The notes: generated by a model not told the origin, from the letters alone. A DNA stretch of 64,000 nucleotides from the human T2T-CHM13v2.0 reference genome, Homo sapiens (GCF_009914755.1 NC_060941.1), one strand, 5' to 3'; shown: positions 41,493 to 42,161, numbered from the stretch's first letter. Made by a program: numbers and translations.

Positions 41493-41688
41493 ACTACTCA
41501 GACTGCCTTCTCTAGAGAAGAACGGTCACCAACAGCAAACAGCAGTTAGAATAACGCAACACCAAACACTGCTATCCCACTCGTGAGAGAACACAAATAT
41601 CTCCCTCTCGCGGTTTCCAGCGTTCTACACGTTCAGATATACTCCTCGAGAAACACACTATAGAAATTATCCCTCAAAATATAGTCTT
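41493..41688 (-). ncRNA. Divergent U3 snoRNA (SNORD3-like) gene or pseudogene, about 196 nt, nested in a TEX14 intron in the same orientation
   Basis: Minus strand reads AAGACTATATTTTGAGGGATAATTTCTATAGTGTGTT...CTGAACGTGTAGA...GACCGTTCTTCTCT AGAGAA..GTCTGAGTAGT, colinear with human U3 (AAGACUAUACUUUCAGGGAUCAUUUCUAUAGUGUGUU...GUCUGAGUGGU); no poly(A) tail or TSD. Confidence 0.92.
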
Positions 41689-41730
41689 AATGTCCATTTA
41701 TGTGCCTTCCACATGCGAAAGAAACTCACA

Positions 41731-41749
41731 CATATTATGCTGATGGTGA
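41731..41749 (-). promoter_or_regulatory. Proximal sequence element (PSE) of an snRNA-type Pol II promoter
   Basis: TCACCATCAGCATAATATG starts at -61 relative to the U3-like +1 (41688); the TCACC core and position match the SNAPc-binding PSE. Confidence 0.85.
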
Positions 41750-41905
41750 GTATTTCGTGAGCACATTTTCCTCTCGAAAATATTACTATGTGTTTTTTCC
41801 AAAAACGATCTTTCCACTACCAAAGTTCGAAAAAGCATTTAAAATAAGCTCAAAATTTCGAAGATACTTTAGGCAATCACTGTAATTAACATATGGTAGC
41901 AAAGC

Positions 41906-41942
41906 ATGCAAATCACTCAGAGCTCCTTTCTAACCCCGCCCC
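41906..41942. promoter_or_regulatory. Distal sequence element: octamer ATGCAAAT (41906-41913) plus GC box CCCCGCCCC
   Basis: Perfect Oct-1 octamer at -218 to -225 from the U3-like +1 (canonical DSE distance), with an adjacent Sp1-type GC box. Confidence 0.85.
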
Positions 41943-42161
41943 ATTTTCCTCCACGCGTAACGCTGACGACTATAAAGCGCGCCGGAGCGCCAGAAACCGT
42001 CAGGGAAACTGCCCGGTTTGGACTGATGATCGGAAGCAAGAAGGCCCTTCGAGAATAACCAAAGAGTGAAGGGAAAGCGATAATTCAAAGCCAAAGATTG
42101 TGATATTTGCATAGCGCGCCCTATTATATTTTATACTGTGATCAAAATTCCACACACTTAA

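What the first reader, a model, noticed from the sequence alone, without database searches (positions are those of the whole stretch)
41493..42120. Divergent U3 snoRNA with an intact snRNA-type promoter, nested in a TEX14 intron
Seen: a 196-nt U3 homologue with PSE at -61, a perfect octamer at about -220, a GC box, and no poly(A) or TSD. It therefore looks like a true gene copy, not a retropseudogene. Established: U3 is independently transcribed by Pol II from PSE/DSE promoters. From memory, mouse Rnu3b and U1 genes also lie in Tex14 introns (needs verifying). Inference: an ancestral snRNA locus whose promoter stayed intact while the RNA diverged, producing either a variant RNA or a promoter kept for another purpose.
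Basis: partly seen in the sequence, partly recalled or inferred. Interest (0 to 1): 0.8.

Follow-up and report, generated by a model that had tools for sequence, protein, structure and literature searches.

The report
Decaying ancestral U3 gene in TEX14
This is a real but degenerate copy of the U3 small nucleolar RNA gene, sitting with its own promoter where mice keep their working U3B genes; it has already been described in print and looks like a gene in the course of being lost.

Summary
Window 41493-41688 (minus strand) is a full-length but weak U3 match (78.3 bits; the 17p11.2 U3 genes score 181-199). Upstream lie a PSE at -61, a perfect octamer at -225/-218 and a GC box at -254/-246. There is no poly(A) tail. 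The PSE block and a DSE block align in register with the promoters of the canonical U3 genes, so this is a DNA-level gene copy and not a retrocopy.

The locus is already in print. Hoeppner et al. 2018 call it ENSG00000212195, the oldest amniote U3 locus, Pol II-supported, carrying a deletion shared with chimpanzee and 78 SNPs. Zhang et al. 2022 call it "atypical U3", and their primers hit this locus uniquely. Mouse U3B.1-4 lie in Tex14 intron 2.

Added here:
- The promoter is one of the two CpG-retention maxima in 138 kb of TEX14.
- The RNA has lost its structural signal (z -0.82 against -3.85).
- A U3/L1 chimeric retrocopy on chr3 preserves an earlier state of this variant. It shows the RNA existed in the germline or early embryo.
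- Since that copy was made, the TEX14 gene has changed 12-13 times against 1-2 in the copy.

Best reading: a still-transcribed, unconstrained gene that decays fast. Novelty: already known.

The parts
41493..41688 (-). U3-like RNA coding region, 196 nt. It starts at A 41688. The 5' domain is mostly kept and box D (CTGA) is kept. Boxes C', B and C are altered, and the 3' hairpin is deleted together with 3 nt of the long stem.
   Evidence: Rfam hit at 78.3 bits. Alignment to the canonical genes. Pair count. Primers of Zhang et al. 2022 match at 41493-41512 and 41712-41732.
41732..41750 (-). Proximal sequence element (PSE), starting at -61. The block CTCACCATCAG is shared with the canonical U3 promoters, which read CTCGCCATCAG at -62.
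   Evidence: It has 4 mismatches to the recalled 18-nt PSE consensus, all in the 3' half.
41883..41893 (-). DSE block TATGTTAATTA. It aligns with TATGCTAATTA, the octamer-like element of the canonical U3 genes.
   Evidence: alignment A1, columns 337-347.
41906..41913 (-). Perfect octamer ATTTGCAT at -225 to -218. In the alignment it stands where the canonical U3 promoters have GATTGGCT (an inverted CCAAT).
41934..41942 (-). GC box GGGGCGGGG at -254 to -246.
   Evidence: Read.
42105..42112 (+). Second perfect octamer. It reads ATGCAAAT in gene orientation, at -424 to -417.
41551..42200 (.). Block of CpG retention covering the gene body and promoter. CpG o/e is 1.14-1.31; the median over the TEX14 region is 0.24.
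   Evidence: Four of the 5 tiles (of 2679) at or above 1.14 lie here.
41474..41486 (-). Run of 13 T starting 7 nt after the RNA 3' end. No convincing 3' box lies within 80 nt.

Best explanation
This is the ancestral amniote U3 gene locus in TEX14 intron 2. It is the positional counterpart of the four working mouse U3B genes.

In the human lineage the working U3 genes are the 17p11.2 array. The TEX14 copy has been released from constraint.

Its snRNA-type Pol II promoter (PSE for SNAPc; octamer and GC box for Oct-1 and Sp1) is still largely in place and has stayed unmethylated in the germline. It probably still drives transcription from A 41688.

The 196-nt product lacks the 3' hairpin. It carries changes in box C (TGATGA to TGGTGA), box B, box C' and the hinge region. 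Inferred: it assembles poorly into a U3 snoRNP and is a decaying gene product rather than a working U3.

Inferred: because the body is still transcribed but not protected by selection, it accumulates changes several times faster than neutral DNA. Hypermutability of this kind is reported for primate Pol II snRNA genes. That would explain why the promoter looks good while the RNA has drifted.
For: **Shown here**
- Promoter blocks are homologous to, and in register with, those of the canonical U3 genes.
- CpG o/e is 1.14 in the promoter and 0.98 in the body, against a regional median of 0.24. Two decayed U1 copies in intron 1 have 0.19-0.25 (promoters 0.25 and 0.23; one body 0.19, the other with no CpG).
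- Of 63 Rfam model pairs, 12 are lost with the deletion. Seven are non-standard, of which 3 are non-standard in the canonical gene too.
- The MFE z-score is -0.82 (40 of 200 shuffles fold as well), against -3.85 (0 of 200) for the canonical gene.
- Of 48 differences from the 17p11.2 genes, 37 are derived on the window's lineage, 7 on the canonical lineage, and 4 are ambiguous. Polarity was set with 45 dispersed retrocopies.
- The chr3 U3/L1 chimera (L012) shares the 21-nt deletion, a 1-nt insertion, a 1-nt deletion, box C TGGTGA and 21 substitutions with the window. It keeps the canonical box B. The variant RNA was therefore reverse-transcribed in the germline or early embryo.
- Since that split the window has 12-13 private changes in 108 sites, against 1-2 in the retrocopy (binomial p 0.003-0.007).
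- The L1 part of the chimera is 97-98% identical to its nearest genomic relatives, so the event is young (40 of 3155 candidates scored).

**From print**
- Pol II-supported expression, a deletion shared with chimpanzee, and 78 variants in the 1000 Genomes data (PMC5967550).
- Mouse U3B genes lie in Tex14 intron 2 (PMC4057207).
- Human Pol II snRNA genes have 11-16 times the rare-variant density of controls, confined to gene bodies (preprint 10.64898/2026.10.12.758683, passages).
Against: - No expression, ChIP or population data could be examined here. Transcription rests on print and on CpG retention.
- Zhang et al. 2022 report that overexpressing or silencing this RNA changes 5' ETS and 18S processing. 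That argues for residual function.
- Two double, pair-keeping changes and 10 one-sided pair-keeping changes fit some past selection for structure.
- Substitution density is not significantly lower in paired columns (23 of 111) than in unpaired columns (25 of 84); Fisher p 0.18. Structure neither clearly decays nor clearly persists by that measure.
- The rate asymmetry would also arise if the chr3 copy came from a lost, constrained sister gene.
- The preprint on hypermutability covers spliceosomal snRNA genes and does not mention snoRNA (0 occurrences).
- Among the 12 recent changes, C>T against G>A is 4 to 1, which is not significant (p 0.375). The two C>T sites noted are at CpG (discussion of positions 109 and 148), so no APOBEC-type pattern is shown.
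Confidence: 0.6

Rival explanations
1. Working variant U3 (neofunctionalised or 'atypical' U3). The RNA accumulates, assembles into an RNP and acts in pre-rRNA processing, or on another target, with altered protein-binding boxes.
For: - Zhang et al. 2022 (PMC9055567, passages) report lower levels in pterygium. They also report that overexpression or CRISPR silencing shifts 5' ETS and 18S maturation measured by RT-qPCR.
- Hoeppner et al. 2018 name the locus a candidate for neofunctionalisation.
- The first 41 nt, holding boxes A' and A, differ at only 5 positions, and box D is intact.
- Twelve pair-keeping changes were counted.
Against: - Box C carries A to G in the first GA, which by established knowledge of k-turns is needed for SNU13 binding. 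Boxes B and C' were hit again after the chr3 fossil was made.
- The hinge region has several changes (positions 66-72).
- The 3' hairpin and part of the long stem are gone.
- There is no thermodynamic structure signal.
- Evolution is faster than in the gene's own retrocopy, and 78 SNPs are reported. Both speak against purifying selection.
- The 2022 tests rest on overexpression from a U6-promoter vector and on RT-qPCR only (passages read, not the whole text).
Confidence: 0.17
2. The promoter is kept for a use other than making this RNA. A SNAPc/Oct-1-bound, unmethylated element would act as an enhancer, boundary or bidirectional promoter for TEX14, the lncRNA LOC105371842 or other neighbours. 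The RNA would be a by-product.
For: - The hub's annotation lists RefSeq enhancer elements at 41736-41875, which covers the PSE-to-DSE interval, and at 42298-42840.
- It also lists a lncRNA starting at 42649 on the other strand, about 960 nt upstream.
- CpG retention spans 41551-42200.
Against: - The retained motifs are those of the canonical U3 promoter, in its register. Inheritance explains that without any new role.
- Gene-body CpG retention and fast body evolution fit ongoing transcription of the RNA itself.
- Nothing here tests enhancer activity.
Confidence: 0.13
3. Fully dead pseudogene. Neither the promoter nor the RNA is active today, and the motifs are leftovers.
For: - RefSeq labels the locus a pseudogene (hub annotation).
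- The PSE 3' half is degenerate and no clear 3' box is present.
- The RNA shows no structure signal.
Against: - A CpG o/e above 1 in a 42% GC stretch would not survive long methylation. Two neighbouring dead U1 copies show 0.19-0.25.
- Print reports Pol II sites and uniquely mapped reads, and detection by RT-qPCR.
- The chr3 chimera shows the variant RNA existed after the deletion arose.
Confidence: 0.1

Closest known systems
Human U3 snoRNA genes at 17p11.2 (five loci found here, L001-L005; recalled names SNORD3A to SNORD3D)
   Same: - Same RNA family.
- Same start (AAGACTATA...) and the same box D.
- PSE at the same distance, sharing the block CTC(A/G)CCATCAG.
- A DSE with an octamer-type element at about -200.
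   Different: - 74.6% identity over 181 nt.
- 78 bits against 181-199.
- The 3' hairpin is deleted, and boxes C, B and C' are changed.
- A perfect octamer stands where the canonical promoter has an inverted CCAAT.
- The flanks are otherwise not alignable.
Mouse U3B.1-U3B.4 genes in Tex14 intron 2
   Same: Same host intron of the same gene, so they are positional counterparts (PMC4057207; PMC5967550).
   Different: The mouse copies are four identical, expressed, full-length (214-nt) genes. The human locus is a single degenerate copy. Mouse sequence could not be compared here.
ENSG00000212195, the 'TEX14-associated U3' of Hoeppner et al. 2018 and the 'atypical U3 snoRNA' of Zhang et al. 2022
   Same: It is this locus.
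- It lies in TEX14 intron 2.
- It has a low CM score and a stem-loop deletion.
- The printed box letters AGAGGGA, GAGTGGGATA and TGGTGA are present.
- The cloning primers match uniquely.
   Different: Nothing differs. This report adds the promoter alignment, the CpG measure, the chr3 fossil and the rate test.
Dispersed U3 retropseudogenes and U3/LINE-1 chimeric insertions
   Same: The chr3 relative (L012) fits the printed class: a sense-oriented, truncated U3 piece fused to an L1 3' end (PMC11838501).
   Different: The window locus itself is not of this kind, because it has promoter homology and no poly(A). The chr3 chimera is the only one of 61 U3-related loci examined that derives from the TEX14 variant rather than from the ordinary U3 sequence.
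Hypermutable Pol II-transcribed spliceosomal snRNA genes of primates
   Same: Same promoter type. An excess of change in the gene body, with the promoter's CpGs retained (the promoter's own rate was not measured) (preprint).
   Different: That work covers U1, U2, U4, U5, U11, U12 and U4atac, not U3. Here the evidence is fixed or haplotype differences against one retrocopy, not population data.

Membership tests
U3 snoRNA (Rfam RF00012) | Covariance-model score above the gathering score over the full model. | tested here: met
   78.3 bits against a gathering score of 34, over model positions 1-219. The canonical genes score 181-199.
U3 snoRNA (Rfam RF00012) | 5' domain with boxes A' and A. | tested here: met
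   Five differences in the first 41 nt, at positions 10, 14, 21, 38 and 41. Box limits are recalled and not taken from a tool.
U3 snoRNA (Rfam RF00012) | B/C motif: box C TGATGA with box B. | tested here: not met
   Box C reads TGGTGA. Box B reads GAGTGGGATA against the canonical GAGCGTGAAG.
U3 snoRNA (Rfam RF00012) | C'/D motif and terminal stem. | tested here: inconclusive
   - Box D CTGA is kept.
- C' reads AGAGGGA against AGGAAGA.
- In the terminal stem, 1 of 5 pairs is broken and 1 is turned into G-U.
- A shifted k-turn cannot be excluded.
U3 snoRNA (Rfam RF00012) | 3'-domain hairpins. | tested here: not met
   The last hairpin (9 pairs) and 3 pairs of the long stem are absent.
U3 snoRNA (Rfam RF00012) | Stable, TMG-capped, nucleolar RNA bound by box C/D proteins and RRP9. 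| not testable with these tools
   Only print is available: RT-qPCR detection and RNA-seq mapping.
Pol II snRNA-type gene | PSE at about -55 to -60. | tested here: met
   - The PSE starts at -61. Its 5' half is perfect. It has 4 mismatches of 15 specified positions in all, against 1 in the canonical gene.
- In 2000 random 100-nt pieces, 111 reach 4 or fewer mismatches at any offset.
- The consensus used is recalled.
Pol II snRNA-type gene | DSE with an octamer at about -220. | tested here: met
   ATTTGCAT at -225 to -218, with a GC box at -254 to -246.
Pol II snRNA-type gene | 3' box 9-19 nt after the RNA end. | tested here: inconclusive
   The best matches have 3-4 mismatches, at +49 and +22. 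The canonical U3 itself has 3 mismatches, at +15. The consensus used is recalled.
Pol II snRNA-type gene | SNAPc, Pol II and Integrator occupancy. | not testable with these tools
   James Faresse et al. 2012 list an occupied 'U3b2-like' locus. Its place is given in Table S1, which could not be opened.
Retropseudogene | Poly(A) tail, target-site duplication and no homology upstream of +1. | tested here: not met
   A T run, not an A run, follows the RNA, and no flanking repeat is seen. Promoter blocks align with the source-type genes.

The most novel reading that the evidence does not exclude
The TEX14 U3 is a live Pol II snRNA-type transcription unit that no longer makes a needed RNA. It therefore records, unfiltered by selection, the hypermutation that such units suffer in the primate germline.

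Its own U3/L1 retrocopy on chr3 is a dated snapshot. In the 108-nt stretch the two share, roughly half of the locus's own divergence arose after that young insertion: about 12-13 changes after the insertion against about 14 before it. That is six to twelve times the rate of the neutral copy.

This would extend snRNA-gene hypermutability to a snoRNA gene with the same promoter type. It would also explain how a gene can keep a good promoter while its product dissolves.
Probability: 0.4. Interest if true: 0.5.

Novelty: already known. Interest (0 to 1): 0.3.

Why it matters
**What the locus shows.** A multicopy RNA gene family can move its working copies, here from TEX14 to 17p11.2 in the human lineage, and leave the old site behind with a live promoter.

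**Annotation.** The locus should not be read as an ordinary retropseudogene. Reads or phenotypes assigned to 'U3' may in part stem from it.

**If the rate excess holds up.** It would give an evolutionary measure, independent of population data, of transcription-linked mutation at snRNA-type genes.

**Limit.** None of this changes the fact that the core finding was published in 2018.

Tried and rejected
**Searches and alignments that gave nothing**
- blastn of the window's promoter against the flanks of ten U3 loci found only the RNA part and Alu matches. Promoter homology shows only as short blocks in the MAFFT alignment.
- A window-wide 3' box search with 3 mismatches returned 549 hits and was useless. 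It was replaced by a local scan, which gave no convincing 3' box.
- A possible Pol III reading (PSE plus T run) was set aside. The only TATA-like ATAAAT lies at -13 to -8, the wrong distance from the PSE (read).
- A second U3 copy in TEX14, as a possible lost-sister source, was sought and not found in the window or in 74 kb covering the rest of the gene.
- An APOBEC-type pattern in the recent changes was looked for and not seen.

**Void results**
- One search used wrong coordinates for the chr3 copy and is void. It was redone.
- The LOC124904122 row used wrong coordinates and is void. The right place is L017 5007-5163.

**Literature**
- Searches with the terms 'Rnu3b1'/'Tex14', 'Rnu3b1'/'chromosome 11' and 'Rnu3b'/'Tex14' found no paper.
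- 'SNAPc'/'TEX14' found 3 unrelated papers.
- 'U3b2-like' occurs in one paper only.
- The first search for U3-L1 chimeras gave nothing of use.

Three tables therefore went unseen: Table S1 of James Faresse 2012, the supplementary tables and Fig. S15 of Hoeppner 2018, and Supplementary Table 2 of PMC11838501, which may list the chr3 chimera.

**Dating.** Dating the L1 part by subfamily was not attempted, because no reference for L1 subfamilies was on hand.

Full report
**1. What is there**

Rfam finds one U3 match in the window, at 41493-41688 on the minus strand. It scores 78.3 bits (E 2.3e-15) and covers the whole model.

In the same genome, the five U3 genes at 17p11.2 score 181-199 bits. 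The next 45 scored hits, dispersed copies, score 75-166 bits (50 of 29704 first-look candidates were scored).

The window copy is 74.6% identical to the 17p11.2 genes over 181 nt.

Read against them, it compares as follows:
- **Kept:** the 5' end and box D.
- **Box C:** TGGTGA for TGATGA.
- **Box B:** GAGTGGGATA for GAGCGTGAAG.
- **Box C':** AGAGGGA for AGGAAGA.
- **Hinge region:** several changes.
- **3' end:** a 21-nt deletion removes the last hairpin and three pairs of the long stem.

**2. Promoter**

Upstream of A 41688 lie these elements:
- CTCACCATCAG at 41750-41740, so the PSE starts at -61.
- TATGTTAATTA at -205 to -195.
- A perfect octamer at -225 to -218.
- GGGGCGGGG at -254 to -246.
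- A second octamer at -424 to -417.

Taken singly these motifs are no more than chance gives. In a MAFFT alignment with three canonical U3 loci, however, the PSE block (CTCGCCATCAG in the canonical genes, at -62) falls in register. So does the DSE block (TATGCTAATTA in the canonical genes). The window's perfect octamer stands where the canonical promoters have an inverted CCAAT.

The rest of the flanks does not align. The two loci are therefore old DNA-level paralogues.

A run of 13 T, not A, follows the RNA, and no target-site repeat is present. The locus is not a retrocopy.

'Intact' overstates two points:
- The PSE 3' half is worn, with 4 mismatches of 15 against 1 in the canonical gene.
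- No clear 3' box is present (both consensus motifs are recalled).

**3. Sign of long-term promoter activity**

- CpG o/e is 1.14 over -450 to -1 and 0.98 in the gene body.
- The median over 138 kb of TEX14 is 0.24.
- Only 5 of 2679 tiles reach 1.14. Four of these lie at this locus.
- The fifth lies at the promoter of a divergent U1-like gene in intron 1.
- Two decayed U1 copies in intron 1 have 0.19-0.25; the canonical U3 has 0.88-0.93.

Retention of CpG in 42% GC DNA implies that the stretch has stayed unmethylated in the germline. This step is inference.

**4. State of the RNA**

On the Rfam structure, the 63 pairs divide as follows:
- 32 unchanged.
- 10 kept through a one-sided change, mostly to G-U.
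- 2 kept through changes on both sides.
- 7 non-standard, of which 3 are non-standard in the canonical gene too.
- 12 lost with the deletion.

Substitutions are not significantly rarer in paired columns (23 of 111) than in unpaired columns (25 of 84); p 0.18.

The predicted fold is no better than shuffles (z -0.82; 40 of 200 shuffles fold as well). The canonical RNA stands out (z -3.85; 0 of 200).

With 45 dispersed retrocopies as outgroup, the 48 differences polarise as 37 derived on the window's lineage, 7 on the canonical lineage and 4 ambiguous.

**5. Already in print**

*Hoeppner et al. 2018* (PMC5967550; passages and section 11 read) describe ENSG00000212195 in TEX14 intron 2:
- It is the oldest U3 locus in 23 amniotes.
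- Its CM score is 69.
- Pol II-dependent expression is supported in human and mouse.
- A stem-loop deletion is shared with chimpanzee.
- There are 78 variants in 1000 Genomes, and reads map uniquely.
- They weigh neofunctionalisation against loss.
- They note U1 and U3 copies in TEX14 introns across species.

*Zhang et al. 2022* (PMC9055567; passages) call it 'atypical U3':
- They print the same three box strings.
- They report effects on 5' ETS and 18S processing.
- Their primers match the window uniquely, at 41712-41732 and 41493-41512. The identity of the locus is therefore certain.

*PMC4057207* (passage) states that four identical mouse U3B genes lie in tandem in Tex14 intron 2.

*James Faresse et al. 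2012* (PMC3499247; passages) list a SNAPc/Pol II-occupied 'U3b2-like' locus with a single activator. Its place is in a table I could not open.

**6. New here: a dated fossil**

A genome search with the locus found one relative closer than the canonical genes. It is chr3:80682553-80682662, 87% identical over RNA positions 76-184.

Its structure:
- A sense-oriented, truncated U3 piece is joined directly to the last ~935 nt of an L1.
- The L1 part ends in poly(A).
- A probable target-site repeat matches at 10 of 12 positions.

U3/L1 chimeras of this build are a known class (PMC11838501, passages).

The piece shares with the window:
- the 21-nt deletion,
- a 1-nt insertion,
- a 1-nt deletion,
- box C TGGTGA,
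- 21 substitutions.

It still has the canonical box B and a nearly canonical box C'.

Among 61 U3-related loci examined, it is the only one that carries the variant's states. So the variant RNA, already without its hairpin, was present where heritable L1 insertions are made.

**7. Rate test**

Over 108 shared sites the counts are:
- 73 identical in all three sequences.
- 21 where window equals chr3 but not the canonical gene.
- 12 changed in the window only.
- 1 changed in chr3 only.
- 1 different in all three.

All 12 window-only changes are derived according to the 45 retrocopies.

Twelve against 1, or 13 against 2, departs from equal rates (p 0.003 and 0.007).

The retrocopy's 1-2 changes fit a young insertion. 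So does the 97-98% identity of its L1 part to the nearest genomic L1 copies (40 of 3155 candidates scored).

Of the 21 shared states, 5 are changes on the canonical lineage and 2 are ambiguous. About 14 changes therefore precede the insertion on the TEX14 lineage, and 12-13 follow it.

A 2026 preprint reports that primate Pol II snRNA genes have 11-16 times the rare-variant density of pseudogenes and intergenic DNA, confined to gene bodies (passages). It does not treat U3.

The 78 variants in 196 nt reported in 2018 fit the same picture. By my recollection of genome-wide variant density, that is an order of magnitude above average.

**8. Caveats to the rate reading**

- The source of the chr3 copy could have been a lost sister gene under constraint. 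No second U3 is left in TEX14.
- CHM13 may carry unfixed variants.
- The spectrum of the 12 changes shows no significant strand bias or APOBEC context: 4 C>T, 1 G>A, 3 A>G, 2 T>C and 2 transversions.

**9. Verdict**

The finding is already known.

The most likely account is a still-transcribed ancestral U3 gene whose product is no longer needed and is decaying, probably faster than neutral DNA because it is transcribed.

A working 'atypical U3' and a promoter kept for another role remain possible.

No expression or population data could be examined here.

Noticed in passing
L012 (G000:C3:80680454-80683162); U3 part at L012 2100-2209, minus strand: A U3/L1 chimeric retrocopy made from the TEX14-type variant RNA. 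It shares the variant's hairpin deletion and box C change but keeps the canonical box B. It is the only variant-derived copy among 61 U3-related loci examined.
   Followed up: yes
L017 5007-5163, minus strand (window coordinates 69007-69163; TEX14 intron 1): LOC124904122 is a strongly divergent U1-like gene.
- It scores 58.8 bits for U1, below the gathering score of 69.5.
- Its 5' splice-site-pairing end is altered, and an Sm-site-like stretch is kept.
- GTTTAAAAGA lies shortly downstream.
- Its promoter holds the only other tile in 138 kb of TEX14 with a CpG o/e as high as the U3 promoter (1.17).

This is the same pattern of a good promoter with a drifted RNA.
   Followed up: partly
L019 3430-3593 and 5392-5555; L018 2396-2554 (TEX14 intron 1): Three U1 copies score 112.6, 101.4 and 72.9 bits. 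Each has a PSE-like motif at -61 or -62, with 3, 6 and 5 mismatches, so they too are DNA-level gene copies. The two in L019 have lost their CpGs (o/e 0.25 and 0.23 in the promoters; 0.19 and 0.00 in the bodies). The lowest-scoring one keeps them (0.77 and 0.65).
   Followed up: partly
L006-L010 and L021-L060 (45 dispersed U3 copies): At seven positions of the canonical numbering (72, 99, 128, 136, 151, 152, 206), most old retrocopies agree with the TEX14 copy and not with today's 17p11.2 genes. The working human U3 sequence has therefore itself changed at these sites since those retrocopies were made.
   Followed up: partly
window 5894-6041, plus strand: A Metazoa_SRP hit sits just at the gathering score (70.7 against 70), with 161 model positions skipped. 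It has the look of an Alu element, not an SRP RNA gene.
   Followed up: no
window 41300-41460, minus strand: The stretch GTGTGTTTTGAGAGATGTG occurs twice, about 80 nt apart, downstream of the U3 gene.
   Followed up: no
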